A DNA stretch of 36,270 nucleotides, from NCBI GenBank assembly GCA_964623925.1, contig CAZUVT010000003.1:1-36270 (forward strand), in the 5' to 3' direction. The notes under the pieces were generated by a model. The model had not been told where the DNA came from. It ran no database searches and saw nothing but the letters and a program-made list of their open reading frames with translations. A program made the translations under genes and the position numbers. Shown piece by piece: positions 6,044-25,274 of this stretch. This DNA is from an uncultured Erysipelotrichaceae bacterium. GTDB lineage: Bacteria; Bacillota_I; Bacilli_A; Erysipelotrichales; Erysipelotrichaceae. Position 1 is the first letter of the stretch. The number at the start of each line of letters is the position of its first letter.

Positions 6044-7423
6044 TTATTCTGCTTTTTCCAAGAATACTTTATAAGCACACATCGCTTCATAAACATCGAT
6101 CTTGCTTACAACTTCCCATGGTGCATGCATGTTCTGTACGGCAACACCCATATCAATGCAATCCATGCCATATTGAGCACAGATATAAGCGATGGTTCCG
6201 CCGCCTCCGACATCAACCGCTCCGAGTTCAGATGTCTGATAGGCTACTTCTGCTTCATCAAATATTTTTCTCAACTGCGCAATGAATTCCGGACGAGCAT
6301 CATTCGCCCCGCCTTTGCCGCGCGATCCGGTGAATTTAACCATAACGATTCCTTTTGAGAAGAATGAAGTATTCTTCATTTCATTTACACCCGGATAATT
6401 CGGATCATAAGCTGCTGCAACATCACTGCTCAGCATCTTGGAGTTAGCAAGTGCTCGGCGAACTGCCAATTCACTGTACTGCCCGCATTTATTCATGACT
6501 TCAGCCACTGTATTCTCAAAGAATTTTGAATGAGCCCCGGTTGCACCGATACTTCCGACTTCTTCTTTATCTGTCAATAAGCAGACGCCTGTTCTATTCA
6601 GCTCTTTGGCATTCAATAATCCGGCTAAAGAAGTATAGGCACAGACTCTGTCATCATGACCGTAACCCATGATCATACCGCGATCAAATCCAAGATCTCT
6701 TGCACATCCTGCCGGTACGACTTCCAGCTCGGCACTCAAGAAATCTTCCTCATCAAAGCCGTATTTTTCTTCCAACAGTTTCAAGATATTGGCTTTAACA
6801 GAATGCTTTTCCTCTTCTTTTAATGGAATGCATCCAACTGTCACATTCAATGCTTCTCCGTCAATTACCTTGCCTGCCGGCTTTGACATCTGATCACCGG
6901 CCAAATGGATAAGAAGATCGGAAATCTCAACGACCGGATCAGAAATCTCTTCTCCAATGACGACATTCACAGTTGTTCCGTCTTTCTTGCAGACGACACC
7001 ATGGATAGCTAAAGGTGTTGCGACCCACTGATATTTCTTGATACCGCCATAATAATGTGTATCCAATAAGGCAATATCCTGATCCTCATATAAAGGATTC
7101 TGCTTAACATCAATACGAGGCGAATCGATATGAGCGCCTAGAATATTCAATCCTTTTTCTAAATTTTCTTTACCGATCACAAATAATGCCAAAGTCTTAT
7201 TCATCAGATGTGCATAAACTTTATCTCCGGCTTTTAATGTTTCAAATTCATCTAAGCTCTTGAATCCATTCTCACGAGCCAATCGGATACTTTCGGTAAC
7301 ACATTCTCTTTCTGTCTTGCAGTCAGAGATAAACTTTTTATAGTCTTCATTAAAGCTCATGACCTCAGCCAATTTTGCTTCATCGCATCTCAACCATGCA
7401 TTTTTGCGTTCAATTTTTCCCAT
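6044..7423 (-). CDS. M18-family aminopeptidase (aminopeptidase I-like zinc metallopeptidase)
   Basis: The length (459 aa) and the GYGHDDRVC / HxD metal-ligand region fit the M18/M42 fold. GAGGAAAAATA RBS. Confidence 0.7.
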   Translation of the reverse strand: MGKIERKNAWLRCDEAKLAEVMSFNEDYKKFISDCKTERECVTESIRLARENGFKSLDEFETLKAGDKVYAHLMNKTLALFVIGKENLEKGLNILGAHIDSPRIDVKQNPLYEDQDIALLDTHYYGGIKKYQWVATPLAIHGVVCKKDGTTVNVVIGEEISDPVVEISDLLIHLAGDQMSKPAGKVIDGEALNVTVGCIPLKEEEKHSVKANILKLLEEKYGFDEEDFLSAELEVVPAGCARDLGFDRGMIMGYGHDDRVCAYTSLAGLLNAKELNRTGVCLLTDKEEVGSIGATGAHSKFFENTVAEVMNKCGQYSELAVRRALANSKMLSSDVAAAYDPNYPGVNEMKNTSFFSKGIVMVKFTGSRGKGGANDARPEFIAQLRKIFDEAEVAYQTSELGAVDVGGGGTIAYICAQYGMDCIDMGVAVQNMHAPWEVVSKIDVYEAMCAYKVFLEKAE

Positions 7424-7438
7424 TATTTTTCCTCTTTT

Positions 7439-9349
7439 CTATCGAATGATCGTTCCTTTAGGAAGATCGACTTCTACTACTTTGATTTTTCCATCTGCTT
7501 CTCCGGCTAAGATCATTCCCTGACTTTCCACTCCGCGAAGTTTAGCAGCTGCCAGATTGCTGATGACGACAACTTTCTTACCGACCATCTCTTCCGGCTT
7601 ATAACTGGATGCGATACCACTGACGATCTGACGGGTTTCATAACCCAGATCGATCTGTGATACCAGCAGCTTATCTGCCTTTGGATGCTTTTCACAGGCA
7701 ATGACTTCACCGACTGTCATTTCAACCTTGCCGAAATCATCAATCGTAATTTCCGGTTTTGTCTGCGGCTTTTGGATCTGAGGCTTGCTTTCAGCGACAA
7801 TCTTTTCCAAGACTTCTTTTTCATCCAATCTTGCAAACAGGATCTCTGCTTTATTCAAAGTAATTCCGTTTTCCAGCTGACCAAATGTTCCGACTGTTTC
7901 AAAATCTCTCTTCTCTGTATTCAGCTGATCCAAGATCTTCTTTGAAGTTTCCGGCAAGAACGGCTCCAACAAGACAGCCGAAGTACGGATGCATTCAAGC
8001 AGATTATACAAAACGGTTGCCAGACGAGTTTTTTTGCTTTCATCTTTACCAAGTGTCCAGGGGGTCGTTTCATCGATATACTTATTGCTTCTTCTAAGAA
8101 GGGTGAAGATATCATCGATGGCATCAGCCACACGCAACTGATTCATCTTCTCTTCAACTTTTGCAGGCAAAGAAGCACACATTTCAATCAGTTCTTCATC
8201 AATCGCTTCTTTTTCATTGGTGTTTTCGACTAAACCGCCGAAATACTTATGGCTCATCGTGATCGTACGATTGACTAAGTTTCCAAGAATATTCGCCAAA
8301 TCCGAATTGATGCGTTCAATAATCAATTCATGAGTGACCGTTCCATCTTGGGCAAAAGGCATTTCATGCAGCATGATATATCGAACTGCATCCACACCAA
8401 AATGACGCACAAGATCATCGGCATAGATTACATTTCCCTTGGATTTGCTCATCTTTCCTTCGCCGACCAGCAGCCATGGATGACCGAAAACCTGCTTAGG
8501 AAGTGGCAGATCCAGTGCCATCAGCATGATCGGCCAGTAAATCGTATGGAATCTTAAGATATCCTTTCCAATCAAATGAACATCAGCCGGCCAGTATTTC
8601 TCATAAAGTTCACCGTGATTTCCATCCATATCAAACCCCAATCCGGTGATATAGTTGGATAAGGCATCGATCCAGACATAGACAACATGACGATCATCAA
8701 AGTCAACCGGAACGCCCCATTTGAAAGAAGTTCTGGATACACACAGATCCTGCAAGCCCGGCTTGATGAAATTGTTGATCATTTCATTCTTTCTCGATTC
8801 AGGCTGAATAAAATCCGGATGTTCCTCGATATGTTTCAATAAACGGTCTGCATATTTGCTCATCTTAAAGAAATAAGCTTCTTCTTTAGCTTTCTGAACA
8901 GGCCTTCCGCAATCCGGACATTTTCCGTCAACCAACTGAGATTCGGTATAGAAAGATTCACAAGGAGTGCAATACCACCCTTCATATTCTCCCTTGTAAA
9001 TATCGCCCTGCTCATACAATTTCTTAAACATCTTTTGAACCTGCTTTTTATGATATGCATCTGTCGTTCTCATGAAACGATCATATGAGGTATTCATCAG
9101 ATCCCAGATATCCTTGATCTGTCCTGCCGCATTATCTACAAATGCCTGTGGTTCAAGGTTAGCAGCTTTCGCCTTCTCTTCGATTTTTTGACCATGCTCA
9201 TCTGTTCCGGTCTGGAAATAGACATCATAGCCTGCATCTCTTTTATAGCGGGCAATCGCATCGGCAAGTACGATCTCATATGTATTTCCGATATGCGGCT
9301 TTCCGGATGCATAGGCAATTGCCGTTGTAATATAATACTTTCCTTTCAT
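7439..9349 (-). CDS. metG: methionyl-tRNA synthetase with C-terminal tRNA-binding (EMAP-like) domain
   Basis: HIGH motif (GKPHIGN), KMSKS motif (KMSKSKGN) and a zinc knuckle CPDCG. The C-terminal about 100 aa forms an OB-fold tRNA-binding domain. Confidence 0.95.
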   Translation of the reverse strand: MKGKYYITTAIAYASGKPHIGNTYEIVLADAIARYKRDAGYDVYFQTGTDEHGQKIEEKAKAANLEPQAFVDNAAGQIKDIWDLMNTSYDRFMRTTDAYHKKQVQKMFKKLYEQGDIYKGEYEGWYCTPCESFYTESQLVDGKCPDCGRPVQKAKEEAYFFKMSKYADRLLKHIEEHPDFIQPESRKNEMINNFIKPGLQDLCVSRTSFKWGVPVDFDDRHVVYVWIDALSNYITGLGFDMDGNHGELYEKYWPADVHLIGKDILRFHTIYWPIMLMALDLPLPKQVFGHPWLLVGEGKMSKSKGNVIYADDLVRHFGVDAVRYIMLHEMPFAQDGTVTHELIIERINSDLANILGNLVNRTITMSHKYFGGLVENTNEKEAIDEELIEMCASLPAKVEEKMNQLRVADAIDDIFTLLRRSNKYIDETTPWTLGKDESKKTRLATVLYNLLECIRTSAVLLEPFLPETSKKILDQLNTEKRDFETVGTFGQLENGITLNKAEILFARLDEKEVLEKIVAESKPQIQKPQTKPEITIDDFGKVEMTVGEVIACEKHPKADKLLVSQIDLGYETRQIVSGIASSYKPEEMVGKKVVVISNLAAAKLRGVESQGMILAGEADGKIKVVEVDLPKGTIIR

Positions 9350-10333: not shown

Positions 10334-10759
10334 CTAATCTGCTTCCTTATCCGCTTTTAACTGATTCGCTATATACTCTTTGATTATTTTCGTATTCTTC
10401 CCTACTGTGTCCACATAGTATCCCTTACACCAAAACTCTCGATTCCGATATGCAAATTTCATATTCCCAAATCGCTGAAACAGCATCAAACTGCTTTTCC
10501 CTTTTAAGTACCCCATGAATCCGGATACACTCATTTTGGGTGGTATCGCCAACAATAAATGTACATGATCTGCACAGACCTCTCCTTCGATAATCTCGAC
10601 TCCTTTCCATGTACATAATGTCTTGATGATTTCTCTTATTGCCGCCCTTTTTTCATTGAAGAATACTTTCCTTCGATATTTTGGTGCAAATACGACATGA
10701 TATTTACAATTCCATTTTGTATGTGCTAAACTATTCGTAGCATTATTTTGTTCACTCAA
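10334..10759 (-). CDS. tnpA: IS200-family Y1 (HUH) transposase TnpA
   Basis: HUH motif HVHLLL, YHVVFAPKYRRKV and catalytic-Tyr region FWCKGYYV. Probable TTG start 8 nt after AGGAGG. Confidence 0.85.
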   Translation of the reverse strand: MSEQNNATNSLAHTKWNCKYHVVFAPKYRRKVFFNEKRAAIREIIKTLCTWKGVEIIEGEVCADHVHLLLAIPPKMSVSGFMGYLKGKSSLMLFQRFGNMKFAYRNREFWCKGYYVDTVGKNTKIIKEYIANQLKADKEAD

Positions 10760-10919: not shown

Positions 10920-13754
10920 TTATTTTAAAGCACGGATTGCGTTGAATACCGCCAGAAGCATAACTCCGACATCCGCAAAGATAGCCAATCCCATATTAGC
11001 CTGACCGATCGCACTTAATACGAGGATAAATGCTTTTACCAATAATGAGAAAATGATATTTTGCATTACAATCCGGCGGGTCTTCTTCGCTCCTTTGATG
11101 GCATCGTTGATCAGCATCAGATCATCATTCATAATGACTACATCTGCTGCTTCGATTGCCGCATCACTCCCAAGTCCGCCCATTGCCAATCCGACATTGG
11201 CCAATGCCAGTACCGGTGCATCATTGATTCCATCTCCGACATAAGCACAGTTTGCATGCTGATTCAGCTTTTCAAATGCTTCCACTTTATCTGTTGGTAA
11301 CAGTTCGCCGTGAACTTCATTGATTCCGCATTCTTGTGCAACTGCCGAAACACTCTTATTATTGTCACCGCTTAAAATTACGGTCTTCTTGATTCCAATT
11401 GTTTTCAGATCACGGATAGCCTGTTTTGCTGTCGGCTTGATTTGATCATTGATGATGATCACACCACTGTATTTTCCATCGATTGCCACATAAACAGCCG
11501 TTCCTTGAGTTGCGGTTTCTTCAAATTCAATGCCGTTCTTTCTCATTAACTTTGAATTCCCGGCCAGAATCACATGATGATCAAATTGCGCTTCAACTCC
11601 ATGTCCGGCTAATTCATTGACACTTTCGATTTTAGTTGAATCAATCGTTTTTCCATATGCTTTGACGATCGCTTTGGAAATCGGATGGGTAGAATTCGAT
11701 TCAGCATAAGCACAGTATTCAATCAATCGTTCTTCCTCGATTTCCGATTTGACTTCAGAGACAAAGAATTCTCCTTTTGTAATCGTACCTGTTTTATCAA
11801 ATACAACGGTATCCACCGCATTTAATGCATCTAAATAGTTGCTTCCCTTTACAAGAATTCCCTTTTTGGAAAGTCCACCGATGCCGGCAAAATAAGTTAG
11901 CGGTACTGAAATAACCAACGCACACGGACAAGATACAACCAAGAAGATCAATCCACGATGGAAATATTCCCAGAAATCTGCCGAAGGAATGATCAGCGGA
12001 CAGATAAAGGCAATGATACAAGCCAATGCAACGACAGATGGCGTATAGACTCTTGCAAAAGTAGTAATGAAATTTTCAGCATGGGCTTTACGATTGGATG
12101 AATTTTCTACAAGATCCAAAATCTTGGAAACTGTTGATTCATCGGAGGTTTTCGTAACCCGTACTTCAAGGAGTCCCTGCATATTGACACATCCGCTGAT
12201 GACCTCATCATTCACGCTGACATCTCTTGGCAAACTTTCCCCTGTCAAAGCAGCCGTATTCAAGCTGGAAGCTCCATTTAGTACAACCCCATCCAACGGC
12301 ACTTTTTCACCCGGTCTAATAACGATGATATCGCCCACATTTACTTCTTCAACTGCCATTTTCTCAATTCGATCGCCAAGCTTAACATTGGCTTCATCCG
12401 CTCGAATATTCATCAACTCAGAAATAGAGCGGCGGGAATTCTCTACCGCAATAGCTTGAAGAAGCTCTCCGATCTGATAAAGCAACATAACGAAGACACC
12501 TTCCGCAAATTCACCTGTTCCGATCGCTCCGACTGTAGCCAAAGCCATCAGGAAATTTTCATCCATCCACTGTCCTTTTCCCATATTTCTAATCGCGGTT
12601 TTCAATACCGGATATCCAACCAAAAGATAAGAAACCAAATAACAGATCAAATTGATCGGTGATTTTAGAAACTGTGCACCCACTAAAAATAAAATAGACC
12701 CTACGATCTTCAATATATCAGAACGATGATTTTTTGTTTCTTTTTTATTTTGTCCGGATGATTTTTTTTCTTCCAAGGTACAATCAGGCTCTACCCGCTG
12801 GATCGTTTTTCTGATATTCGAAATTGCCTCATCATAATATTTTTGTTCAACATCAAAAGACAATGTTTCATTCATAAATATCAGCTGAACATTTTTCAAA
12901 TGATCGATTTTTGCAATTTCTCTCTCTAGCTGAGCTGCACAATTGGCACAATCCAAACCTTTCACAAGCATCTGAATCTTTCCGACAGGAACTCGATGAT
13001 CTTCAACCTGTTCATCATAATGATGCTCACCATGATCGTGTCCACATCCACATTTGTGATCATGATGGTGCTCGTGATGATCGTGGTTATGGTGATGTTC
13101 ATGATGACATTCACAATGTGAATCATGTTCGTGATGATGGCTATGATGTGCTTGATTTTTCTCTAAACTTGCTTCTGGTTCCACCCTTTCAATCACTTCT
13201 TCAATTTCGTGAATCATTTCATCCAACCGTTCTTCTTCACATTCAAACAACAATTTTTCCTGCATAAAATTGATCGATACGTTTTTCAATCCTTCAATTT
13301 TTGCAATCTCTCTTTCAAGCTTAGCTGCGCAATTAGCACAATCCAGCCCGCTTATTTTCATTTGGATCTTTTTATCTGAAGACTCGTGATCTTCTTGGCA
13401 ATTGCATTCATGGTCACAATGAGAATGATGATCCTCTCCACACTCATATTCATGATGATGGTGTTCATGTCCGCAGCCACAGCTGTGACTATGCTCATAA
13501 TCATGGTGATGTTCTTTTTCGTTGTGATGCGACCCTTTGACTAAACTCGCCTCCGGCTCCACTCTTTCAATCACTTCTTCAATTTCATGAATCATGTTAT
13601 CCAACTGTTCTTCCTCACACTCAAACAACAGTTTCTCCTGCATAAAATTAATTGATACGTTTTTCAGTCCTTCAATTTTTGTAATCTCTCTTTCAAGCTT
13701 GGCTGCACAATTAGCACAATCCAAGCCCTCGATTCCCATTTTCACTTGTTTCAT
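10920..13754 (-). CDS. P1B-type heavy-metal translocating ATPase (CPC motif; Zn/Cd/Co/Pb-type) with three N-terminal HMA domains and His-rich linkers
   Basis: DKTGT phosphorylation site, SCPC transmembrane metal site, GDGINDAP and a TGES-like TGESLP motif. There are three GLDCANCAA(K/Q)LE HMA repeats separated by His/Cys-rich stretches. Start is placed at the second ATG (13754, preceded by GGAGG), which also aligns repeat 1 with repeats 2 and 3. The track start at 13775 has no SD. Confidence 0.9.
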   Translation of the reverse strand: MKQVKMGIEGLDCANCAAKLEREITKIEGLKNVSINFMQEKLLFECEEEQLDNMIHEIEEVIERVEPEASLVKGSHHNEKEHHHDYEHSHSCGCGHEHHHHEYECGEDHHSHCDHECNCQEDHESSDKKIQMKISGLDCANCAAKLEREIAKIEGLKNVSINFMQEKLLFECEEERLDEMIHEIEEVIERVEPEASLEKNQAHHSHHHEHDSHCECHHEHHHNHDHHEHHHDHKCGCGHDHGEHHYDEQVEDHRVPVGKIQMLVKGLDCANCAAQLEREIAKIDHLKNVQLIFMNETLSFDVEQKYYDEAISNIRKTIQRVEPDCTLEEKKSSGQNKKETKNHRSDILKIVGSILFLVGAQFLKSPINLICYLVSYLLVGYPVLKTAIRNMGKGQWMDENFLMALATVGAIGTGEFAEGVFVMLLYQIGELLQAIAVENSRRSISELMNIRADEANVKLGDRIEKMAVEEVNVGDIIVIRPGEKVPLDGVVLNGASSLNTAALTGESLPRDVSVNDEVISGCVNMQGLLEVRVTKTSDESTVSKILDLVENSSNRKAHAENFITTFARVYTPSVVALACIIAFICPLIIPSADFWEYFHRGLIFLVVSCPCALVISVPLTYFAGIGGLSKKGILVKGSNYLDALNAVDTVVFDKTGTITKGEFFVSEVKSEIEEERLIEYCAYAESNSTHPISKAIVKAYGKTIDSTKIESVNELAGHGVEAQFDHHVILAGNSKLMRKNGIEFEETATQGTAVYVAIDGKYSGVIIINDQIKPTAKQAIRDLKTIGIKKTVILSGDNNKSVSAVAQECGINEVHGELLPTDKVEAFEKLNQHANCAYVGDGINDAPVLALANVGLAMGGLGSDAAIEAADVVIMNDDLMLINDAIKGAKKTRRIVMQNIIFSLLVKAFILVLSAIGQANMGLAIFADVGVMLLAVFNAIRALK
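13160..13345 (-). repeat. intragenic direct repeat copy A (HMA-domain unit 2), about 90% nt identity to copy B
   Basis: Direct comparison of 13184-13350 with 13560-13728 shows near-identical runs, for example CAATCACTTCTTCAATTTC(G/A)TGAATCAT and TGCAATCTCTCTTTCAAGCTT. Confidence 0.7.
13536..13722 (-). repeat. intragenic direct repeat copy B (HMA-domain unit 1)
   Basis: See copy A. The period is about 376 nt. Confidence 0.7.
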
Positions 13755-13773
13755 AGCGCCTCCAACATCAAAC

Positions 13774-13793
13774 ATATGAACAACTGTTCATAT
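13774..13793. promoter_or_regulatory. ArsR/SmtB-family-like operator (ATATGAACA-AC-TGTTCATAT) overlapping ATPase promoter/5' UTR
   Basis: Perfect 9-2-9 inverted repeat with a TGAACA/TGTTCA core. It sits immediately downstream of the predicted -10. Confidence 0.55.
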
Positions 13794-13862: not shown

Positions 13863-15368
13863 TTATATAGAACATGCAACAATCAAAAATGGAATAATGA
13901 ATATTAGGATAAAAAACGATACGACGAAAACGACCCAACCAGCTCCTGAACTTTCAGAATCACGTCTAATTGCTTTCAGTTTACATTCTTCTGCAAGTTT
14001 TTTAGAATCCTTATAATCCACAATAGAATTAAATGTCTTCTCTAATTCTTCATAATCATATTTTGAAACGGCTGTTTCCATCGCTTTAACAGCTTCGGCA
14101 TAGATTTTCTCATTGCGCATCTCTTGTGCCTGATCTACATATCCTTGAATTTCATTTGCCAATTTTGGATCAGCATACAACATCAACTTCTTATAACTGG
14201 TTTTCGTACTGAAATCGATTTTTGAGTTGACCAATTCCTCTTTTTTATTGACATGGACATTGGCCATGATTTTATACAAATAAATGAGTGGATTTTGCGG
14301 ATCTTGATCTAATGCTTTTTCACAATACTCATTCGCTTCATCCCATTCTTCAAAATTTAAAAAGATTTCAATTCGTTTAAGTAAATTTTCCACTTTCGCT
14401 TCCTCAGTAAGATCCTTACTCTCTCCTGAATCATGATTTACTTTAATTTCAGTTTTGATTTCTTTTTTCTCATCTTTTGCACAGATCTTTTTAATTCCTC
14501 GAATCAGATCCTGCATAAAGCCCAATTTTGACATATCCTGAGCCTGCAAATGCGAGAATTCTTCCGGAAGATCATAAGGATCCATGTCCCGATAAGCCGG
14601 AATCAGTGTCTTCTTTTCTCCTCGCTTGATCAATTCCAGATAGCGGCTCCATTCATTCTTGACCCATACCGAATTCAAATGTTCTACGTTCGTCCCGATT
14701 ACAACCATGACTTTAGCACTGTGTAAAGCAGAGAATATGCATGATTCGTAATTCTCACCCAATTTATTTTCTAATGTAATTCGTGAGAAAAAGACTTTAA
14801 ATCCTTCATCTTTCAGTTCATAATACAATTCATTGGCCAAGACCGAATCTTTAGTTCTATTGCCTTCCTTATCACTTTCTTTATAACAGATAAATACATC
14901 ATACGGAGATTCTTTTTGAGAAAGTACCAAGATCTGTTTGCGGATATTTTCGATTTCATTTCCTGATTCTTCATAAAGCACTTTTGAATCTTCATCTGCG
15001 TATTCAATCGCTTTCTTATAATCATCATCTTCCAGTAAAGATTGTACTTGCAAGCGATGGATCGTCGGTATCCTTCTCTTAGTTTGCGGATCTTCAACAT
15101 ATTCGACTCCATATCGACACAAAACAAGTGACCAATAAGCCAAAGCCTCTTTTGAATCTTCCAATAAGATCTGCTCATATAGATTCATAGCGCGATCATA
15201 TTCATGAAGTCGAAGAAAATGATCTGCACGATCAAATAAGTTTATTTTTCTATCATTCCCCATCTTAGGAAGTGCCTGCTTAATGCCGCAGCTATCACAG
15301 ACTCCAACCACATCTCCCTCTTTAAATTCCAACTTTCCCCCACAAATCTTACACTTCAACTCAACCAT
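13863..15368 (-). CDS. zinc-ribbon / TPR-like / TIR-domain protein with C-terminal transmembrane anchor
   Basis: N-terminal CxxC...CxxC (CKICGG...CDSCG). TIR core YDVFICYKESD ... SVWVKNEWSRYLEL, including a W-x-x-x-E motif. The C-terminus is a hydrophobic helix WVVFVVSFFILIFIIPFLIVA. RBS GGGAG. Confidence 0.7.
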   Translation of the reverse strand: MVELKCKICGGKLEFKEGDVVGVCDSCGIKQALPKMGNDRKINLFDRADHFLRLHEYDRAMNLYEQILLEDSKEALAYWSLVLCRYGVEYVEDPQTKRRIPTIHRLQVQSLLEDDDYKKAIEYADEDSKVLYEESGNEIENIRKQILVLSQKESPYDVFICYKESDKEGNRTKDSVLANELYYELKDEGFKVFFSRITLENKLGENYESCIFSALHSAKVMVVIGTNVEHLNSVWVKNEWSRYLELIKRGEKKTLIPAYRDMDPYDLPEEFSHLQAQDMSKLGFMQDLIRGIKKICAKDEKKEIKTEIKVNHDSGESKDLTEEAKVENLLKRIEIFLNFEEWDEANEYCEKALDQDPQNPLIYLYKIMANVHVNKKEELVNSKIDFSTKTSYKKLMLYADPKLANEIQGYVDQAQEMRNEKIYAEAVKAMETAVSKYDYEELEKTFNSIVDYKDSKKLAEECKLKAIRRDSESSGAGWVVFVVSFFILIFIIPFLIVACSI

Positions 15369-15399: not shown

Positions 15400-16104
15400 T
15401 TATTTCTTATCCTTTAGTGTTGATAAAATATTTTGAACATTTGATTCTTTTATAACATCAGGATATTTTTTATCAAATTCAATTAAAACATTTTGAGTTT
15501 CAATTTCCGAAGATCGGACAGATTCATAAATCTCTATAAAATTCTTATTGATAAATGCTTTCTCAATAAATATTCTTGAATCTGCCGAAAAATCATCCCA
15601 TCCCCCATAAAGGTTTTGTACTGCTGTATCGATCATTTCAAATGTAATCGGCATATTTCTTTTTTCATGTTCTGCAAGTATTCCAACAATATCTGATAAA
15701 TCGTTTTTATATATTCTTCCCGCCTTTAATTTCATGGCAATTAAATATTCTCCGGTAACTGTTCTAATTGAAAGCACATTTGAAAATGTTTTATAATATG
15801 TGGAAAACTCATCTAATTTCATCGAATAGGAACTTGTATTTATAAAATCTGTATTGATCCATTCTTTTGGCAAATCAAATTTTTCTCCTACAACATTAAT
15901 GGCTTCTTTCATTGCAGAAGAAGCATAGATAATTGCATCGATATCGGTAGTCATATCTCTAAAACCATAGTTTGTCAAAATTGCAGCACCACCAACCAAA
16001 ATAATTTCGGCTGGCATGATCTTTCCATTGCGTTTTCTAAATTCTTTAGCCAAATCTTTAAGTATTAACTCTAAATTCTCTTTAGTAAACTTTCTATGCG
16101 ACAT
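15400..16104 (-). CDS. AbiEii-like (DUF1814-type) nucleotidyltransferase
   Basis: VGGAAILTNYGFRDMTTDIDAI matches the GG-x14-DID spacing and the R-x-T-x-D-I-D signature of AbiEii/Pol-beta NTases. The start overlaps the upstream gene by 11 nt. RBS GAGGT. Confidence 0.5.
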   Translation of the reverse strand: MSHRKFTKENLELILKDLAKEFRKRNGKIMPAEIILVGGAAILTNYGFRDMTTDIDAIIYASSAMKEAINVVGEKFDLPKEWINTDFINTSSYSMKLDEFSTYYKTFSNVLSIRTVTGEYLIAMKLKAGRIYKNDLSDIVGILAEHEKRNMPITFEMIDTAVQNLYGGWDDFSADSRIFIEKAFINKNFIEIYESVRSSEIETQNVLIEFDKKYPDVIKESNVQNILSTLKDKK

Positions 16105-16663
16105 TTCTTACCTCGCTTTCAATAATATTAAAACGCAAGAACTCTGGAATTGCTTCAGATATGGCTTTTTTCTTTATGTCATCATCATTCATCACATGTG
16201 ACATCACCAAGACACTCTTTGGAAAAAGATAATCTTTTAGTTTTGCATTCCGGATATATTCATAATCTGTGCATAATGGAATATCGTTTTCTCTGCTCAA
16301 ATAATCAAGCATAGCAAGAAGATAAAAACATTCAGGAAAATACTTTTTATTGTAATATTCAAGTATTTTATTTTTGCTCAGTAACTCAATTATAAAATCA
16401 ATATCTCCCAATGCTTTCAGTCTATGACAGACATTGCTTTTAAAAAGTTCAAAATCCACTCGATCATATAAATAGGATTCGATAAGTTGTTCCATGGAAA
16501 TACCAAGAGTTTTAGAAATACGATAAATCGTTTCTCCGGTACATTTATTCAAATGTACTTTTCCATTACAAATATCGTTGATCGTTGTATACGCAATTCC
16601 ACTCTCCTTGGATAATCGATATTTGGTGATCTTTTTTTTCTCCATCAATTCATTAATTGTCAT
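16094..16663 (-). CDS. Xre-family HTH protein with about 130-aa C-terminal domain (putative regulator/antitoxin partner of the NTase)
   Basis: N-terminal HTH (ITKYRLSKESGIAYTTINDICNGKV). Translationally coupled to the NTase gene. Confidence 0.55.
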   Translation of the reverse strand: MTINELMEKKKITKYRLSKESGIAYTTINDICNGKVHLNKCTGETIYRISKTLGISMEQLIESYLYDRVDFELFKSNVCHRLKALGDIDFIIELLSKNKILEYYNKKYFPECFYLLAMLDYLSRENDIPLCTDYEYIRNAKLKDYLFPKSVLVMSHVMNDDDIKKKAISEAIPEFLRFNIIESEVRNVA

Positions 16664-16683: not shown

Positions 16684-16712
16684 ATTATAACGGTATACCG
16701 ACATAATATCAA
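16684..16712 (-). promoter_or_regulatory. promoter TTGATA-17-TATAAT for HTH–NTase–TIR cassette
   Basis: Minus-strand TTGATA (plus 16707-16712) and TATAAT (plus 16684-16689), 17 nt apart. The predicted start is about 20 nt upstream of the ATG. Confidence 0.5.
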
Positions 16713-16766: not shown

Positions 16767-17462
16767 TTATTTTCTTCGTAACAATTTGCTGTTTCTTTCC
16801 TGAATCTTTTGCTGTATTTCATTTGAAATCATTTGAACCTGTTCCAATTCTGACTTTTTAACAGCTTCTATTAATCTTGAAAACAATACTTGAATCTCTC
16901 CTTCCAGTTCAATCAGATCCTCTGTGCTCATCGGATCGGCATATCGGAAGAGTTCGTATACTTTCTGACACTCTTTTCTTATTTCTTTTGAATCTGTCTT
17001 TTGAATCAGCTGTTTTGATACAGTCGTCATCGAACGGATAAAATCCGTTTGATTGAGGATCCTATCATCAATCGATTCAAGATAATCTGCTGTTTTTTTC
17101 GCTTTAATTGAAGCAAAGACCGTTATACATGCTATCATCATGCACCCAATAGCACCGATCCAATTCGGGAAATTCGGCACAAACAGAATGACAACGATCA
17201 TGAAAACGATTCCTGCCAGTCCCCATAGTCCGATCTTAATTAAAGGGAAATGATAAAAAACATGCGACAACTTCCCGGCCCGATAGGCGGAAAATATGAG
17301 AATACTCTGCATGATCAAACTTAAATTAACTAAAATAAAGGTTCCGATCACCACTTTATTGGATGCATCCTGCATAGAAAAACCGGACCGGATCGCAAAA
17401 ATATTATAAAAAACAAGCGCGGCAAGAGAACAGATTTGAAACTCTTTAAATTCTTTCTCCAT
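16767..17462 (-). CDS. integral membrane protein (about 4 TM) with C-terminal coiled-coil, YdjH-like position
   Basis: Hydrophobic helices throughout the N-terminal half. The start is probably MEKEFKEF (ATG 17462, RBS GAGGA) and not the track start at 17540, which overlaps the upstream gene. Confidence 0.5.
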   Translation of the reverse strand: MEKEFKEFQICSLAALVFYNIFAIRSGFSMQDASNKVVIGTFILVNLSLIMQSILIFSAYRAGKLSHVFYHFPLIKIGLWGLAGIVFMIVVILFVPNFPNWIGAIGCMMIACITVFASIKAKKTADYLESIDDRILNQTDFIRSMTTVSKQLIQKTDSKEIRKECQKVYELFRYADPMSTEDLIELEGEIQVLFSRLIEAVKKSELEQVQMISNEIQQKIQERNSKLLRRK

Positions 17463-17467
17463 CCTGC

Positions 17468-18346
17468 TTATCCTCTTTTCTTTCCACATTTCGGGCAGAA
17501 ATTCCCTGATCTTGTAAAAACATACCCGCAATTTGAACAAACTTTCTGCTCATCATAAAGAGGATTTCCACATTGCTCGCAAAATGAAGAATCCGCATGA
17601 TTCTTCATGCCGCAGTTCTCACAATAGATTTCCTCTTTCATTGTATTTGATTCTTTTTGAAAATACATCTGCTTGTACTTTTCGTATTCTTCATCTTCCG
17701 GCTTAACGATCGTTGTAATAAAAAAGCGTTCCAGAACAACTCCATATTCTTCGAAATCTGCGCTGAGAAGATTCTTCAGATTCTCTGACAATAAAGACAG
17801 ATTCTCATCAATACTGAAAATCGTGAATTCTTTCTGACTCATAACATGGGCAAGATAAGTTTTTATTTTTGTCATCAATACAGCTCTAAAAAACTGCTGA
17901 ACTTCCTGCCGATCCACTTCCGGATCTGAGCCGGCCACTTTAATCAGAAACTTTCGGCTGTCTTCGATTCGCAAAGACATTTCTCCGGAAGCACCGATAG
18001 ATAAAAGAAAATGATAGGTAGGTTCCAAGTATTCCACCCGGCTATCTGTTCCCCATTTAATCGGCATCAACTCATTCTTGTTGATAAAATAGACAGCGCA
18101 GTGAAAAGCCGTTTTATTTTCCTTTTTTCGATTGAAAAAATCTGTTATTTTCGGGATATTCTGTGTTTCAAGTGTATACCTTCCAGGGCCAAACAAATCT
18201 AATGCCTGACCATTCATAAAAAAGATGGCCTCTTGATTTTCCTGTACCACAAGTTGAGTAAAAGAGTCGAAATCTTCATGTGGATGTTTCCAAGAAAATG
18301 CATGACTATCTCCTTCATATTTAATTACTTCTGTCGCTCTTCCCAT
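17468..18346 (-). CDS. SPFH-superfamily protein of the YdjI / COG4260 type with two C-terminal zinc ribbons
   Basis: The N-terminus VIKYEGDSHAFSWKHP...LVVQENQEAIFFMNGQ resembles the YdjI family start. The C-terminus has CENCG...CEQCG and CSNCG...CPKCG. The real start is MGRATEV (ATG 18346 after GGAGG); the track extension to 18538 overlaps mscS. Confidence 0.55.
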   Translation of the reverse strand: MGRATEVIKYEGDSHAFSWKHPHEDFDSFTQLVVQENQEAIFFMNGQALDLFGPGRYTLETQNIPKITDFFNRKKENKTAFHCAVYFINKNELMPIKWGTDSRVEYLEPTYHFLLSIGASGEMSLRIEDSRKFLIKVAGSDPEVDRQEVQQFFRAVLMTKIKTYLAHVMSQKEFTIFSIDENLSLLSENLKNLLSADFEEYGVVLERFFITTIVKPEDEEYEKYKQMYFQKESNTMKEEIYCENCGMKNHADSSFCEQCGNPLYDEQKVCSNCGYVFTRSGNFCPKCGKKRG

Positions 18347-18455
18347 TTTTCCTCCCCAACAATTTCTATATGTTCTTATAAGATGACTATACAATAAAAT
18401 CCAGATAAATTCAAGACAGAGTCTTCGGGAATCGAATGAACTTAAAAACAGCAGA

Positions 18456-19340
18456 TTACTCTGCTGTTTCGTTTTGATTTTCCTTTGTCTTGATCGTAAC
18501 ATCCAACTGATTAAACGGAATTTCGATCTGGTTGGCATCTAATGCCTCTTTAATGCTTAAGCGAAGCGCTCTTTCCATTTCCCAGTGTTTCAAAGTCTTG
18601 ACTTTGCATATCAACGTAACAGCAATACTGGAATCCTCAAAGGCTGTGATCCCCAGCATTTTCGGTTGTTCCAAAACAAGATCAGAATGTTCCTTTGCGC
18701 ATTTTTCAGCCGCTTTCAAGCATACATCCATCGCCTTTTTCAAATCGCCTTCATAGCTTAGCGGAATCTGCACTTTCGCCAAAGAATCAGCGCGGGAATA
18801 GTTGATCACTGTTTCGATTTTGCCGTTTGGGATAATGATCTGTTGTCCTGCTGCTGTTTTCAAATAGGTGACACGCATTGCTGTAGCGCTGACCGTTCCT
18901 TCCACATCTCCGATCTTAACAAAATCTCCTACTGAGAATTGATTTTCAAACATTAAGAAAAAGCCGGTCACAACATCTTTTACCAGACTTTGTGCTCCAA
19001 ATCCGAGCGCTACTGACCCAATTCCTGCCGTCACTAAAAGATTATGAAGCGTTGTTCCAAATCCCAAAACCGATAGAATGAGCATCGCACAAATGAAATA
19101 AACCGCATATCTCGCCACACTGCGAAGCAGAGTCATCAGCGTCTTGATGCGCTTTTTCTGCATTTCCGGTTTTTCTTCCGCTTTTTTCATATTATAACTG
19201 GTCATCCTGCTGATCAGAGATAAAATTGCTTTCCCGGCTATCACAATAAAAATAATGCATAGCGTATTCCAAACAATGGCCCCGCTGTTTTCACTGAGCA
19301 TCTTGAATTGATTTTCAAAATAAATCTGAATATTTTCCAT
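18456..19340 (-). CDS. MscS-family small-conductance mechanosensitive channel
   Basis: Three TM helices, then the conserved MscS beta domain (GDFVKIGDVEGTVSATAMRVTYLKT...IIIPNGKI). Confidence 0.85.
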   Translation of the reverse strand: MENIQIYFENQFKMLSENSGAIVWNTLCIIFIVIAGKAILSLISRMTSYNMKKAEEKPEMQKKRIKTLMTLLRSVARYAVYFICAMLILSVLGFGTTLHNLLVTAGIGSVALGFGAQSLVKDVVTGFFLMFENQFSVGDFVKIGDVEGTVSATAMRVTYLKTAAGQQIIIPNGKIETVINYSRADSLAKVQIPLSYEGDLKKAMDVCLKAAEKCAKEHSDLVLEQPKMLGITAFEDSSIAVTLICKVKTLKHWEMERALRLSIKEALDANQIEIPFNQLDVTIKTKENQNETAE

Positions 19341-22985: not shown

Positions 22986-23470
22986 TATTTTGCCTCTTTT
23001 TTCTTTCTAATTTCATTTTAACACTCATTTCAAAAATTGACAACTTTCCTTTTCATGTTTATGAAAACGTTAAGTCAAATGAGGGTAGATTATGAAACTA
23101 TCAAGAGAAGTGAAGATCCTTCCCTACATTTTTACTGTGTATTCTATTTTTCTATATTATTCCAATCTTTCTTCCACAGAAAGAGCGGATTTCTATCTTA
23201 TTATTTACCGTTTCCGGTCGTCTTCCATATATACCTTCCACACTTATCTATTAGGATCCTTCTTGTTGGATCTATATTCTCATTTATCTCTTATTTAGTT
23301 TCTAAAAATAAAAAGGAAGCCAAAGTAACTTCTTCAGCAGAAACACCCGAATCCAAGATTTACTCTTTTGGACATTCAGTGCAAGATACAAAAGAGTTTA
23401 TGTAACTCACCTTGATTTTGTTGCTTTGCCTTTTTTATTTTGATAAGTTAATCTTCAAGGAGGAATCTTT

Positions 23471-24169
23471 ATGCTTATCAAGATCTTATTAGTTGTCGTT
23501 CTTTTCTTATCTGGATGTAATTCTTCCATATCTTCCTCAAACGATTCAGAATCAGAAAATAAAAAAGAATCGGTAGAAGGAGAAGTCATCTCTGTTTCAG
23601 AAAACTCTTTGCTTATTTCCTATGAACAAACTTTAGCGACCGTATCCTTGAATGATTCTGATCATTCATTTTCGATCGGCAACATCGTAAAAGTCAATTA
23701 TGAAGAAATTCAAGAAACTTATCCTGTCACTTTAACTGATCCGGATATTGAATTAAAAGAAATCGGCGATAACCGAATTGAAATGATATTCAATGTTATC
23801 TGTGAAATTTACGAAATTGATCCGGGACTCAACTCTGAAATCAATTTTATCGCATTGAATCTCACTGAATTTGATTTTCTCAATGAATCTCAAAAAAATG
23901 CCTTGTGCTATTTGGTTGAGTCCAAGTTTAAATTTACCGTCCAACAAGCAACCATGGAGGAGTTGATTGAACAAGGCTTAGCCGAAGAGATGCTGATTCC
24001 TGAAGGAATTTTATTCACCTTTAAGTGCGATGATTTCAATTCAAAAGAGCTAAAATTTACCTGTGCAAAATACAGAAGTGGGCTTGGTGCTATCTTCTTT
24101 TCCGAAAGCAAAGCAAAACTAAAAAATCATATTTGGAATTATGAGCTTGGCGGTTTCTCTATATCATAA
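23471..24169 (+). CDS. lipoprotein, unknown function
   Basis: Signal peptide with lipobox LFLSGC, then an acidic Ser-rich linker. AAGGAGG RBS. Confidence 0.6.
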   Translation: MLIKILLVVVLFLSGCNSSISSSNDSESENKKESVEGEVISVSENSLLISYEQTLATVSLNDSDHSFSIGNIVKVNYEEIQETYPVTLTDPDIELKEIGDNRIEMIFNVICEIYEIDPGLNSEINFIALNLTEFDFLNESQKNALCYLVESKFKFTVQQATMEELIEQGLAEEMLIPEGILFTFKCDDFNSKELKFTCAKYRSGLGAIFFSESKAKLKNHIWNYELGGFSIS

Positions 24170-24198
24170 TCTCTTCTCCTATCAAATATCAATTCTAA

Positions 24199-24238
24199 CA
24201 AAAACTCACTTTCAACCAATAAAAGTGAGTTTTTTATT
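24199..24238. terminator. bidirectional terminator between convergent genes
   Basis: AAAACTCACT / AGTGAGTTTT 10-bp stem, flanked by A-run and T-run. Confidence 0.65.
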
Positions 24239-24239
24239 T

Positions 24240-25136: not shown

Positions 25137-25274
25137 TGTCTTTTTCCTCCTAATATATTTATTCGTACAAATTCCTATTCTCCCAAATTTTTCCTATATA
25201 TTCCCGAAATACGAAAAATTTTAAAATTCTTATTTCCCGAGAAAAGAAAAAGGCTGAAGTTTTCCTTCAACCCT

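What the first reader, a model, noticed from the sequence alone, without database searches (positions are those of the whole stretch)
13863..15368. Unusual TIR protein architecture: N-terminal zinc ribbon, TPR-like helical region, TIR with WxxxE catalytic-type motif, long coiled region and C-terminal tail anchor
The TIR core contains both the DVFICY beta-A strand and the SVWVKNEW...LEL helix, in which the Glu aligns with the catalytic Glu of NAD-cleaving bacterial TIRs. A single C-terminal TM helix places the protein as a tail-anchored membrane protein. An N-terminal CxxC-x-CxxC ribbon could bind nucleic acid or a partner. This domain combination is not one of the commonly described TIR fusions (ThsB, TIR-STING, TIR-SAVED, TIR-NLR).
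Basis: partly seen in the sequence, partly recalled or inferred. Interest (0 to 1): 0.7.

Follow-up and report, generated by a model that had tools for sequence, protein, structure and literature searches.

The report
Tail-anchored TIR protein in SPFH operon
The gene encodes a membrane-anchored TIR (immune-type NAD-cleaving) protein that is a short, sensor-less member of a very large uncharacterised family from gut Clostridia. Most members look like bacterial 'Toll-like receptors', sit in a conserved three-gene operon with a flotillin-like SPFH scaffold, and in some genomes have their outer domain hypermutated by a retroelement.

Summary
ORF 13863-15368 (-) encodes 501 aa with these parts:
- a 4-Cys zinc ribbon
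- a helical N-domain
- a disordered linker
- a TPR-like repeat domain, not a coiled coil
- one C-terminal TM helix with 2 residues after it

The architecture is not rare. There are at least 8000 clusters at 90% identity, 4602 representatives at 50% identity, and at least 541 species of gut and rumen Clostridia and Erysipelotrichia.

Most members continue past the TM helix into a variable ectodomain: DUF6273 C-type lectin in 55 of 78, otherwise RCC1 propeller, BspA-type LRR or TPR. The window protein is a recurrent ectodomain-less form.

The gene is the third part of a conserved same-strand operon: soluble SPFH/Band_7_1 with zinc ribbons, then a 4-TM helical-bundle protein, then one to three TIR receptors. 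Both partners are present in 56 of 80 loci. In the window this operon is split by an inserted HTH + DUF6036 cassette.

Six related loci carry a DGR repeat pair that mutagenises the lectin tip; three of them, plus a seventh, also hold both Avd and RT. Some cassettes ride ICE-like elements or include SIR2-like genes.

The most likely function is an SPFH-scaffolded membrane surveillance or abortive-infection NADase. This is inferred, not shown.

The parts
13863..15368 (-). Whole ORF, 501 aa: ZnR / helical NTD / TIR / linker / TPR-like domain / TM
   Evidence: ORF list. An identical protein is in the NCBI-derived collection on a 36270-nt contig. An RBS-like AGGGAG lies 8 nt upstream of the ATG.
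15267..15368 (-). N-terminal 4-Cys zinc ribbon (residues 1-34; C6, C9, C24, C27)
   Evidence: Read directly from the sequence. The cysteines are invariant or nearly so and present in 98 of 99 family ORFs. AF2 predicts three short strands. TIR-less paralogues keep this ribbon.
14913..15266 (-). Helical N-domain with beta-hairpin (residues 35-152), obligately paired with the TIR domain
   Evidence: AF2 secondary structure with pLDDT mostly 75-93. The exhaustive search with residues 1-150 found 4602 representatives, always at the N-terminus. 49 of 50 sampled carry TIR_2.
14478..14906 (-). TIR domain (residues 155-297)
14652..14666 (-). W235-V-K-N-E239, the WxxxE motif holding the putative catalytic Glu
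   Evidence: Aligned to TcpB/BtpA 'WPARE' and flax L7 'WCLME'. Invariant in alignment A1. Present in 99 of 99 family ORFs.
14409..14477 (-). Low-complexity or disordered linker (residues 298-320)
   Evidence: pLDDT below 50 for residues 299-320. This stretch is variable in the alignment consensus.
13944..14408 (-).
   Evidence: Pfam TPR_14 at 327-366, above cut-off. pLDDT 88-97. CTPR and SPAG1 TPR hits in the PDB. This domain is shared with TIR-less paralogues.
13872..13940 (-). Single C-terminal transmembrane helix (residues 477-499), with 2 residues after it
   Evidence: Kyte-Doolittle 3.3 over 19 aa and no other segment above 1.43. Four K/R precede it. The homologous TM helix in long forms is followed by an ectodomain.
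17468..18346 (-). Operon partner 1: soluble SPFH (Band_7_1) protein with a C-terminal double zinc ribbon. The likely true start is M65 of the listed ORF, giving 292 aa.
   Evidence: Pfam Band_7_1 E=5e-37 plus DZR. The orthologue in L003 is 292 aa. An RBS (GGGGAGG) lies before M65. An SPFH homologue, called on the same strand as the TIR gene, is present in 55 of 80 loci.
16767..17462 (-). Operon partner 2: 231-aa protein with four TM helices and a cytoplasmic helical bundle, no Pfam family (called 'MEM' here)
   Evidence: No significant Pfam hit. AF2 pLDDT 80. At least 1567 clusters, all 'hypothetical'. Present with the TIR gene in 54 of 80 loci and in 3 of 3 contexts seeded from MEM itself.
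15400..16663 (-). Inserted two-gene cassette (XRE-type HTH 16094-16663; DUF6036 nucleotidyltransferase 15400-16104) that splits the operon between MEM and TIR
   Evidence: Pfam. It is absent from the syntenic locus L004, where MEM and TIR are 13 nt apart. GC content here is low, 0.31-0.33.
16684..16712 (-). Promoter-like site (TTGATA-17-TATAAT) ahead of the inserted cassette. It could drive HTH-NTase-TIR read-through.
   Evidence: Consensus scan, 11 of 12 matches. The number of such sites in the region is no higher than chance, so this is weak evidence.

Best explanation
The ORF encodes the ectodomain-less, tail-anchored form of a family of N-in single-pass membrane TIR proteins found in Clostridia and Erysipelotrichia.

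**What is shown**
- The family chassis is: zinc ribbon, helical N-domain, TIR with WxxxE, flexible linker, juxtamembrane TPR-like domain, TM helix.
- Most members then carry a fast-evolving extracellular binding domain: DUF6273 C-type lectin, RCC1 propeller, BspA-type LRR or TPR.
- The gene is the third component of a conserved operon. The first is a soluble SPFH/Band_7_1 protein ending in zinc ribbons. The second is a 4-TM protein with a cytoplasmic helical bundle. Then come one to three TIR receptors.

**What is inferred**
1. The 4-TM protein recruits the SPFH protein to the membrane, as B. subtilis YdjG/YdjH recruit YdjI.
2. Together they corral the TIR proteins into a membrane patch, probably through the zinc ribbon and the juxtamembrane TPR domain.
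3. A stimulus then drives TIR-TIR assembly. The stimulus is ligand binding to the ectodomain (phage or another surface ligand) in long forms, or envelope perturbation sensed through the SPFH/4-TM pair.
4. Assembly completes the active site around E239 and NAD+ is cleaved, either depleting it or making a signal nucleotide. The cell arrests or dies.

The window protein has no sensor domain. It would act as the ligand-independent effector of the SPFH/4-TM module, or as a co-assembling partner of long-form paralogues encoded elsewhere.
For: **Domain assignments:**

**Catalytic-type Glu:** aligned to the Glu in 'WPARE' of TcpB/BtpA (which I take, from my own knowledge, to be its catalytic E217) and to the Glu in 'WCLME' of flax L7. 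It is invariant.

**Topology:** one C-terminal TM helix, positive residues on the inside.

**Family size and architecture:**

**Operon**
- 56 of 80 loci hold SPFH and MEM, and all 117 SPFH and MEM hits are on the TIR strand.
- 32 of 40 loci with at least 3 kb of sequence on both sides hold both.
- The dominant order is S-M-T(n).
- These are the only three gene families conserved across the loci.
- Three of three contexts seeded from MEM also hold SPFH and TIR.
- The window shows the same order and synteny as L003/L004.

**Signs of a conflict system**
- The cytoplasmic part is 51-70% identical to the query across the aligned homologues, while the ectodomains have 11% mean column identity.
- Tandem paralogue arrays occur.
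- DGR: TR/VR repeat pairs on the lectin tip in six loci; in five of them 86-100% of 17-21 mismatches lie at TR adenines, and in the sixth, L029, all 3 do. Avd and RT confirmed by Pfam in L030 and L039.
- SIR2_2/AbiH-like genes sit inside some operons.
- One widespread cassette lies between ICE-type genes, with alternative TIR genes at the same site.

**SPFH recruitment precedent:** PMC8581546, bioRxiv 10.64898/2026.02.06.704340 and 10.1101/2021.02.15.431232.
Against: - No activity, localisation or phenotype data exist for any member.
- The aligned Glu also occurs in the TLR15/TLR2 TIR sequence that came up as the best PDB match. From my own knowledge, TLR TIR domains act as scaffolds rather than NADases. 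The motif is therefore necessary for catalysis but not sufficient.
- AF2 confidence inside the TIR domain is only moderate (pLDDT 52-87, with a loop below 50).
- No PADLOC or PHROG model matches the TIR, SPFH or MEM proteins, and there are no hits in phage or plasmid collections.
- Many loci, including the window, sit among housekeeping genes (Trk, MscS, MetRS) rather than in defence islands.
- The high conservation of the cytoplasmic part across families fits a core physiological role as well as it fits defence.
- In the window the operon is interrupted, so co-regulation with SPFH and MEM is uncertain.
- Homology of MEM to YdjH, and of the zinc ribbon to YdjG, was not tested.
Confidence: 0.45

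Rival explanations
1. Envelope-stress or membrane-homeostasis complex. The SPFH / 4-TM / ZnR-TM trio would be a Clostridial counterpart of B. subtilis YdjI/YdjH/YdjG (SamIHG). The TIR domain would act mainly as an oligomerisation or signalling scaffold, or as a mild NAD-linked regulator, that reports membrane state. It would not be an immune executioner.
For: - The component logic matches the published B. subtilis system: a soluble Band 7 protein with a C-terminal zinc finger, recruited by a multi-TM protein and by a TM protein with an N-terminal zinc ribbon.
- The window's operon lies next to MscS and Trk genes.
- The cytoplasmic part is strongly conserved across families.
- TIR-less paralogues with the same ribbon, TPR domain and TM chassis sit in the same operons.
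- There are no PADLOC hits.
Against: - None of the called or scanned genes beside the operon in the window or in L001-L003 and L084-L088 carries a PspA-type Pfam hit.
- The invariant WxxxE argues for retained catalysis.
- DGR hypermutation of ectodomains, SIR2_2/AbiH-like insertions and carriage on ICE-like elements are typical of conflict systems, not housekeeping stress sensors.
- Sequence homology to YdjG or YdjH was not established.
Confidence: 0.25
2. Surface-recognition receptor for the gut niche. The lectin, LRR or propeller ectodomains would bind host glycans, mucus, IgA or other bacteria. The TIR domain would pass that information inward. The window's short form would be a regulatory or decoy subunit that modulates signalling by long forms.
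For: - The ectodomains are classic ligand-binding folds.
- DUF6273 is the C-type-lectin fold that gut-phage receptor-binding proteins use and that DGRs diversify.
- The family is restricted to gut and rumen Clostridia.
- The closest relative's genome (the MAG behind L001 and L003) has both a short and a long paralogue.
Against: - No downstream signalling partner is conserved in the loci.
- A catalytically intact TIR with no reader protein points to NAD+ depletion rather than signalling.
- The window protein has no ectodomain, so this does not explain why it is kept in at least four diverged orthologues.
- SIR2/AbiH-like co-occurrence suggests a cell-suicide logic.
Confidence: 0.15
3. Decayed remnant. 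The 501-aa protein would be a truncated long-form gene that lost its ectodomain and, after the HTH-NTase insertion, its operon context, and is now non-functional.
For: - The operon is interrupted by a 1.37-kb insertion.
- An IS200 element lies nearby.
- Most family members are about 800 aa.
Against: - The reading frame is intact, and every invariant family residue I checked is retained, including the four Cys, W235 and E239.
- The same tail-anchored form is found in relatives only 65-69% identical (P0002-P0004). Tail-anchored forms also occur in other lineages: P0009 by its sequence, the L072 gene at 7001-8674 by its TM position, and probably P0101 and P0104 by length only.
- The syntenic relative keeps the short form directly behind SPFH and MEM.
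- A good RBS precedes the gene.
Confidence: 0.05

Closest known systems
Bacterial TIR NADases (Brucella BtpA/TcpB, Acinetobacter AbTir) and plant or animal enzymatic TIRs (L6/L7, RPS4, SARM1)
   Different: This protein is membrane-anchored by a C-terminal TM helix. It has an obligate zinc-ribbon and helical N-domain and a juxtamembrane TPR domain. It is encoded in an SPFH operon. Sequence similarity is weak (TcpB E=0.03). Activity is untested.
Thoeris (ThsB TIR sensor plus ThsA SIR2/SLOG effector)
   Same: A TIR protein. A few related operons contain a SIR2_2-family gene. There is a weak NCBIfam hit to the TIR part of ThcB4.
   Different: The window has no ThsA-like gene. The ThcB4 score is 26.7 bits against a cut-off of 220. 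PADLOC Thoeris models do not match. The SIR2_2 genes are sporadic and Pfam reported only SIR2_2, with a sub-threshold AbiH match in two, for them.
B. subtilis PspA-YdjGHI (SamGHI) membrane-stress module
   Same: A soluble Band 7/SPFH protein with a C-terminal zinc finger, plus a multi-TM protein, plus a TM protein with an N-terminal zinc ribbon, all in one operon.
   Different: There is no PspA gene. The gene order differs. The ZnR-TM protein here carries a TIR domain and usually a large ectodomain. Homology beyond the SPFH domain family was not tested.
DGR-diversified C-type-lectin 'antigen sensors' of multicellular bacteria (PMC10907252; PMC7159879; PMC7517822)
   Same: In related loci a DGR (Avd-TR-RT) mutagenises the C-terminal lectin tip of a protein that also carries a TIR domain.
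   Different: In those systems, as that paper describes them, the sensors are mostly predicted cytoplasmic STAND-NTPase or MoxR/vWA ternary proteins, with a few secreted or periplasmic, in Proteobacteria and Cyanobacteria. Here they are single-pass membrane proteins with the lectin outside, in an SPFH operon, in gut Firmicutes. The window member has no lectin domain and no DGR.
Animal Toll-like receptors (analogy only)
   Same: The topological logic matches: an extracellular LRR or lectin-type binding domain, one TM helix, and a cytoplasmic TIR domain. The best PDB sequence hit is a TLR15/TLR2 TIR. Some family members have LRR ectodomains.
   Different: The polarity is reversed: TIR at the N-terminus inside, ectodomain at the C-terminus. 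The LRRs are BspA-type and I did not test them against TLR LRRs. Extra ZnR and TPR domains are present. There is no evidence of common descent of the whole architecture. The window protein has no ectodomain.

Membership tests
TIR domain superfamily (Pfam TIR_2, PF13676) | Profile score above the curated gathering threshold | tested here: met
   49.1 bits against a cut-off of 28, residues 158-281.
TIR domain superfamily (Pfam TIR_2, PF13676) | Flavodoxin-like TIR fold | tested here: met
   [not shown]
Enzymatic (NAD+-cleaving) TIRs | Glutamate at the catalytic position of the alpha-C region (WxxxE in bacterial TIRs) | tested here: met
   E239 aligns with the Glu of TcpB 'WPARE' and of L7 'WCLME'. 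It is invariant in the family. Caveat: the TLR15/TLR2 TIR also has a Glu here.
Enzymatic (NAD+-cleaving) TIRs | Measured NAD+ hydrolase or cyclase activity that depends on that Glu | not testable with these tools
   Needs a biochemical assay.
Thoeris ThsB | Adjacent ThsA-type effector (SIR2, TM or Macro with a SLOG sensor), and a match to ThsB models | tested here: not met
   No PADLOC hit. NCBIfam ThcB4 scores 26.7 bits against 220. No SIR2 in the window by tblastn. The neighbours are HTH, NTase and a P-type ATPase.
Tail-anchored membrane proteins | A single TM helix at the extreme C-terminus, no other hydrophobic segment, and only a few residues beyond it | tested here: met
   Residues 477-499 score Kyte-Doolittle 3.3, the next best segment scores 1.43, and 2 residues follow. 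Actual membrane insertion cannot be tested here.
SPFH / 4-TM / ZnR-TIR-TM operon family (defined here) | Full-length homology of the cytoplasmic chassis (ZnR, N-domain, TIR, TPR) | tested here: met
   51-70% identity over 90-100% of the query to thousands of proteins.
SPFH / 4-TM / ZnR-TIR-TM operon family (defined here) | Band_7_1 SPFH gene and MEM gene immediately upstream on the same strand | tested here: met
   The window has SPFH at 17468-18346 and MEM at 16767-17462 on the same strand. A 1.37-kb two-gene insertion lies before the TIR gene, and it is absent from L004.
SPFH / 4-TM / ZnR-TIR-TM operon family (defined here) | Extracellular domain after the TM helix | tested here: not met
   The protein ends 2 residues after the TM helix. 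The window has no DUF6273. This is the minority short form, also seen in P0002-4, P0009 and L072.
DGR target proteins | A variable repeat in the gene with a template repeat nearby that differs at adenines, plus RT and Avd | tested here: not met
   The TIR gene has no repeat elsewhere in the window, and no RT or Avd is found by tblastn. This feature is met in related loci L029, L030, L033, L039, L051 and L059.
PspA-YdjGHI / SamGHI module | Soluble Band 7 SPFH protein with a C-terminal zinc finger, encoded with membrane partners | tested here: met
   Band_7_1 plus DZR. With the M65 start its length matches the 292-aa L003 orthologue. The absence of a TM segment in it was judged by eye only. Literature description.
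PspA-YdjGHI / SamGHI module | PspA gene in the operon | tested here: not met
   The genes upstream are MscS, TrkH and TrkA. No PspA-family Pfam hit appears among the window ORFs I scanned or among the called genes of L001-L003 and L084-L088.
PspA-YdjGHI / SamGHI module | Sequence homology of MEM to YdjH and of the ZnR-TM protein to YdjG | not tested

The most novel reading that the evidence does not exclude
The family is a bacterial outside-in immune receptor system.
- Single-pass TIR receptors have their extracellular lectin, LRR or propeller domains diversified by gene duplication, cassette exchange on ICE-like elements and, in some genomes, DGR hypermutation. These domains would detect phages or competitors at the cell surface.
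- An SPFH scaffold and its 4-TM anchor would organise the receptors so that ligand-induced clustering switches on the cytoplasmic TIR NADase.
- The window's tail-anchored form would be the ligand-independent signalling or adaptor subunit, comparable to MyD88, or the sensor of membrane damage itself.

This would be a prokaryotic counterpart of Toll-like-receptor logic with an adaptive, hypermutating repertoire.
Probability: 0.2. Interest if true: 0.9.

Novelty: new variant of a known kind. Interest (0 to 1): 0.66.

Why it matters
TIR domains are the shared core of animal, plant and bacterial immunity. The bacterial TIR systems I know of sense infection from inside the cell.

This family puts a catalytically intact-looking TIR on the inner face of the membrane. 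It is usually wired to a fast-evolving, sometimes DGR-hypermutated, extracellular binding domain, and it is coupled to an SPFH scaffold.

If the family is active, it would show three things:
- bacteria can use TIR signalling for surface or envelope surveillance;
- SPFH/flotillin-type proteins have a role in immunity-like signalling;
- a very abundant, unannotated gene family of human and animal gut Clostridia (thousands of clusters) has a function.

The window's short form is a natural minimal version. It has no ectodomain, which makes it a convenient construct for biochemistry.

Tried and rejected
- **PADLOC, PHROGs and NCBIfam** on the TIR, SPFH, MEM, HTH and NTase proteins gave no usable system assignment. 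The only hits were a weak ThcB4 TIR match and a PDC-M69A hit to the HTH protein.
- **tblastn of the TIR protein** against phage and plasmid collections found nothing. I dropped the idea that the family is typically carried on phages or plasmids, although one cassette sits in ICE-like flanks.
- **PDB profile search with the full-length alignment** returned only TPR hits. I needed a TIR-only query and a TIR-only profile to see the catalytic alignment.
- **The first MEM homologue search with a single sequence** found only 6 proteins. A 46-sequence profile was needed.
- **The afdb50 fold library** was unavailable.
- **A repeat search in L011** found no TR/VR pair even though Avd and RT are present.
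- **Literature searches** for SPFH plus TIR, DGR plus TIR in Clostridia, and TM-TIR found no description of this family.
- **Coiled coil** was considered for residues 300-470 and rejected in favour of a TPR-like repeat domain.
- **A truncation artefact** was considered and rejected, because diverged orthologues share the short form.
Full report
**1. The observation**

The ORF at 13863-15368 (minus strand, ATG start, 501 aa) exists as described. Its features are as follows.

- **Zinc ribbon.** The sequence carries C6-x2-C9-x14-C24-x2-C27. These cysteines are invariant or nearly so among 30 homologues. The motif is present in 98 of 99 family ORFs.
- **TIR domain.** Pfam places TIR_2 at residues 158-281 (49 bits against a cut-off of 28, E=9.7e-13).
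- **TPR matches.** TPR_14 at 327-366 is above cut-off. A weaker TPR match lies at 45-84.
- **AF2 model.** Built from a 30-sequence alignment, mean pLDDT 79. It shows a three-stranded ribbon, helices at 39-86, a hairpin at 88-103, helices at 115-152, an alpha/beta TIR core at 158-297, a disordered linker at 299-320, a confidently predicted helical repeat domain at 320-447, and a long terminal helix at 455-500.
- **TM helix.** The only hydrophobic segment is 477-499 (Kyte-Doolittle 3.3; next best 1.43). Four K/R precede it and 2 residues follow.

The one correction is that the 'coiled' region is a TPR-like repeat domain.

**2. The TIR domain and its catalytic-type residue**

Sequence searches of the TIR segment against the PDB align query 'W235-V-K-N-E239' with 'W-P-A-R-E' of Brucella TcpB/BtpA. 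With a family profile, it also aligns with 'W-C-L-M-E' of flax L7. From my own knowledge, those glutamates are the catalytic residues of TIR NADases.

WV[KR]NEW is present in 99 of 99 family ORFs. One caveat applies. The TLR15/TLR2 TIR, the best PDB sequence hit, also has a Glu at this position. The motif is therefore necessary for catalysis but does not prove it.

**3. A very large family, of which this is the short form**

The top 120 are about 55% identical over about 94% of the query.
- An exhaustive HMMER search with residues 1-150 found 4602 representatives at 50% identity, with the match always at the N-terminus. Of 50 sampled, 49 carry TIR_2.
- A scan of one genome per species found at least 541 loci. 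They lie in Lachnospiraceae, Oscillospiraceae, Ruminococcaceae, Christensenellales, Erysipelotrichaceae and other gut or rumen Bacillota. The closest (65%) is a mouse-gut Erysipelotrichaceae MAG.
- The few source names given are 'TIR domain-containing protein' or 'DUF6273 domain-containing protein'.
- Most members are 700-900 aa. The region equivalent to the query's C-terminal TM helix is followed by 250-400 more residues.
- Of 78 such ectodomains, 55 are DUF6273. Others are RCC1-like propellers (8), BspA-type LRRs (3; two of these also match LRR_8) or TPR arrays. Flg_new and Lcl_C appear in the broader sample.
- DUF6273 is reported to have a C-type-lectin fold and to be a DGR target in gut-phage receptor-binding proteins.
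- The cytoplasmic chassis is 51-70% identical to the query across the aligned homologues. The ectodomains share 11% mean column identity and no invariant column.
- Tail-anchored short forms like the query recur in P0002-P0004 (65-69% identical), in P0009 by its sequence, in the L072 gene by its TM position, and probably in P0101 and P0104 by length only. The short form is therefore a maintained variant, not an assembly or truncation artefact.

**4. A conserved three-gene operon**

In the closest relatives the TIR gene directly follows a Band_7_1 (SPFH) gene and a roughly 233-aa gene with no Pfam family, all on the same strand. Across 80 genome loci:

- 56 contain homologues of both the window's SPFH and 'MEM' proteins.
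- All 117 such hits are on the TIR strand.
- 32 of the 40 loci with at least 3 kb on both sides have both.
- The dominant order is SPFH, MEM, then TIR, often with two or three tandem TIR paralogues.
- Clustering every ORF of these loci shows these are the only three conserved families (80, 55 and 54 loci). The next most frequent families are in 7 or fewer loci.
- Three contexts seeded from MEM homologues, not from TIR, all contain SPFH and TIR neighbours.

The window has the same arrangement and the same flanks as the Erysipelotrichaceae MAG: DeoC, TrkA, TrkH, MscS | SPFH, MEM, TIR | HMA P-type ATPase, ArsC. It has two extra insertions:

- A 1.37-kb HTH + DUF6036 nucleotidyltransferase cassette lies between MEM and TIR. 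In L004 these two genes are 13 nt apart.
- An IS200 transposase lies between the ATPase and ArsC.

By comparison with orthologues and by RBS position, the real SPFH gene is 17468-18346 (292 aa; I saw no TM-like stretch by eye but did not run a hydropathy scan on it). The real MEM gene is 16767-17462 (231 aa).

**5. The partners**

The SPFH protein is Band_7_1 (E=5e-37) with a C-terminal double zinc ribbon. Orthologues carry DZR or SHOCT tails.

TIR-less paralogues in the same operons keep the N-terminal ribbon fused directly to the juxtamembrane TPR domain, the TM helix and the ectodomain. This suggests two modules. The ribbon, TPR domain and TM helix form the chassis that docks into the system. 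The N-domain and TIR form an inserted effector module.

The closest described parallel is B. subtilis pspA-ydjGHI (samGHI). There the soluble Band 7 protein YdjI, which has a C-terminal zinc finger, is recruited to membrane foci by YdjH and by YdjG. YdjG is a TM protein with an N-terminal zinc ribbon. Homology beyond the SPFH family was not tested.

**6. Signs of a conflict system in related loci**

- **DGR.** Six loci have a second copy of the last 52-150 nt of the TIR-DUF6273 gene, about 570-700 nt downstream in five of them. In five of the six, 86-100% of the 17-21 differences lie at adenines of the downstream, AAY-rich copy: 21 of 21 in L039, 18 of 20 in L030, 18 of 21 in L033, 16 of 17 in L059, and 17 of 18 and 17 of 20 for two paralogues sharing one template in L051. 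L029 has only 3, all at adenines. Pfam confirms the intervening and following ORFs as bAvd and an RVT_1 reverse transcriptase in L030 and L039, and a bAvd in L051. ORF clustering adds Avd in L029, L059 and L011 and RT in L059 and L011, where no repeat pair was found. L033 was not examined for Avd or RT. These are canonical DGR cassettes acting on the lectin tip.
- **SIR2.** SIR2_2/AbiH-like genes are embedded in a few operons: L010, L071, L072, L084 and L085.
- **Integrase.** A tyrosine integrase sits about 300 nt upstream of SPFH in 7 of 80 loci.
- **ICE-like carriage.** One very prevalent cassette (its MEM protein is indexed in 535 blocks of the collection) lies between ICE/IME-type genes: NikA-like, ALP_N, Cys_rich_VLP and TnpV. 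Two contigs share these flanks but carry different TIR genes, one with a DGR and one without.

None of these accessories is in the window.

**7. Mechanism**

Shown by computation:
- the domain composition
- the N-in tail-anchored topology
- the intact WxxxE motif
- membership of the SPFH-MEM-TIR operon family

Inferred:
1. MEM anchors the soluble SPFH protein.
2. The pair organises TIR proteins at the membrane through the ribbon and TPR chassis.
3. Clustering switches on NAD+ cleavage by the TIR domain. Ectodomain ligands would drive it in long forms, and envelope perturbation would drive it for the sensor-less window protein.
4. The result is growth arrest or death, or production of a signal nucleotide.

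I give this 0.45. The main rival is a YdjGHI-like envelope-stress signalling complex in which TIR is chiefly a scaffold (0.25). A niche or adhesion receptor role (0.15) and a decayed remnant (0.05) follow.

The evidence that limits confidence:
- no experimental data for any member
- no match to known defence-system models
- housekeeping-type flanks in many loci
- a Glu at the same position in a TLR TIR domain
- interruption of the operon in the window

**8. Novelty and verdict**

The TIR domain is a known kind, and DGR-diversified lectin sensors with TIR effectors have been described in multicellular Proteobacteria and Cyanobacteria. I found no description of three things in the papers I could search:
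- the membrane-anchored ZnR-TPR-TIR chassis
- its TLR-like topology with extracellular lectin, LRR or propeller domains
- its obligate association with an SPFH scaffold and a 4-TM partner

I classify it as a new variant of a known kind. The window's gene is a genuine, intact, minimal member of this family. It is interesting mainly for what the family appears to be.

Noticed in passing
window 15400-16663 (-): A two-gene cassette, XRE-type HTH (189 aa) overlapping by 11 nt a DUF6036 nucleotidyltransferase (234 aa), is inserted between the MEM and TIR genes. It is absent from the syntenic locus L004. It has low GC and its own promoter-like site. The layout resembles AbiE-type HTH-antitoxin / NTase-toxin pairs, and the HTH protein hits the PADLOC candidate PDC-M69A (E=1.5e-5).
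   Followed up: partly
L030 9312-11401; L039 2676-4761; L051 5376-10000; L059 9424-10243; L033 9422-10250; L029 9407-10177: DGR activity on the C-terminal lectin (DUF6273) tip of long-form TIR receptors. VR/TR pairs have 86-100% of 17-21 mismatches at template adenines (L029 has only 3, all at adenines). Avd and RT are confirmed by Pfam in L030 and L039 and inferred by ORF clustering in L059. L051 and L029 have an Avd but no RT was found, and L033 was not checked. In L051 one TR serves two TIR paralogues.
   Followed up: yes
L086 and L087 (whole loci); L019 3930-4769 and six other loci: A tyrosine integrase lies about 300 nt upstream of SPFH in 7 of 80 loci. In L086 and L087 the cassette lies between ICE/IME-type genes (NikA-like, ALP_N, Cys_rich_VLP, TnpV). 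The two contigs share these flanks but hold different TIR genes, which suggests a swappable cargo cassette.
   Followed up: partly
L084 3905-4867; L071 118-1227; L010 4090-5031; L072 5934-6857: SIR2_2/AbiH-like genes are embedded in or next to some SPFH-MEM-TIR operons. SIR2_2 is a second NAD+-consuming enzyme family.
   Followed up: partly
window 10334-10759 (-): An IS200-like (Y1_Tnp) transposase is inserted between the P-type ATPase and the ArsC/glutaredoxin gene, relative to the syntenic MAG locus L003.
   Followed up: no
window 10920-13775 (-): A 951-aa heavy-metal P-type ATPase has what look by eye like three N-terminal HMA-type repeats separated by long His/Cys/Glu-rich spacers (HHHEHDSHCECHHEHHH...). 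The window protein was not scanned against Pfam. The 860-aa orthologue in L003 carries HMA, E1-E2_ATPase and Hydrolase hits, and the extra 91 aa may be an extra repeat.
   Followed up: no
window 17468-18538 and 16767-17540 (-): The mechanically listed ORFs for SPFH (356 aa) and MEM (257 aa, TTG start) are over-extended upstream. Orthologue lengths and RBS positions indicate starts at M65 (18346) and M27 (17462). These starts remove the apparent overlaps with MscS and SPFH.
   Followed up: yes
L075 5727-6977: An FtsK/SpoIIIE-type ATPase with an FtsK-gamma domain carries the family's N-terminal zinc ribbon (query residues 3-56) and sits just upstream of a TIR receptor gene. This suggests the ribbon is a portable docking module.
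   Followed up: no
window 23000-27000: A low-GC stretch (0.30-0.33) holds two ORFs with no Pfam match (23471-24169 on the plus strand, 24240-25136 on the minus strand) and an HTH_3 + TPR regulator of RRNPP-like layout (25275-26549 on the minus strand).
   Followed up: no
[not shown]
   Followed up: no
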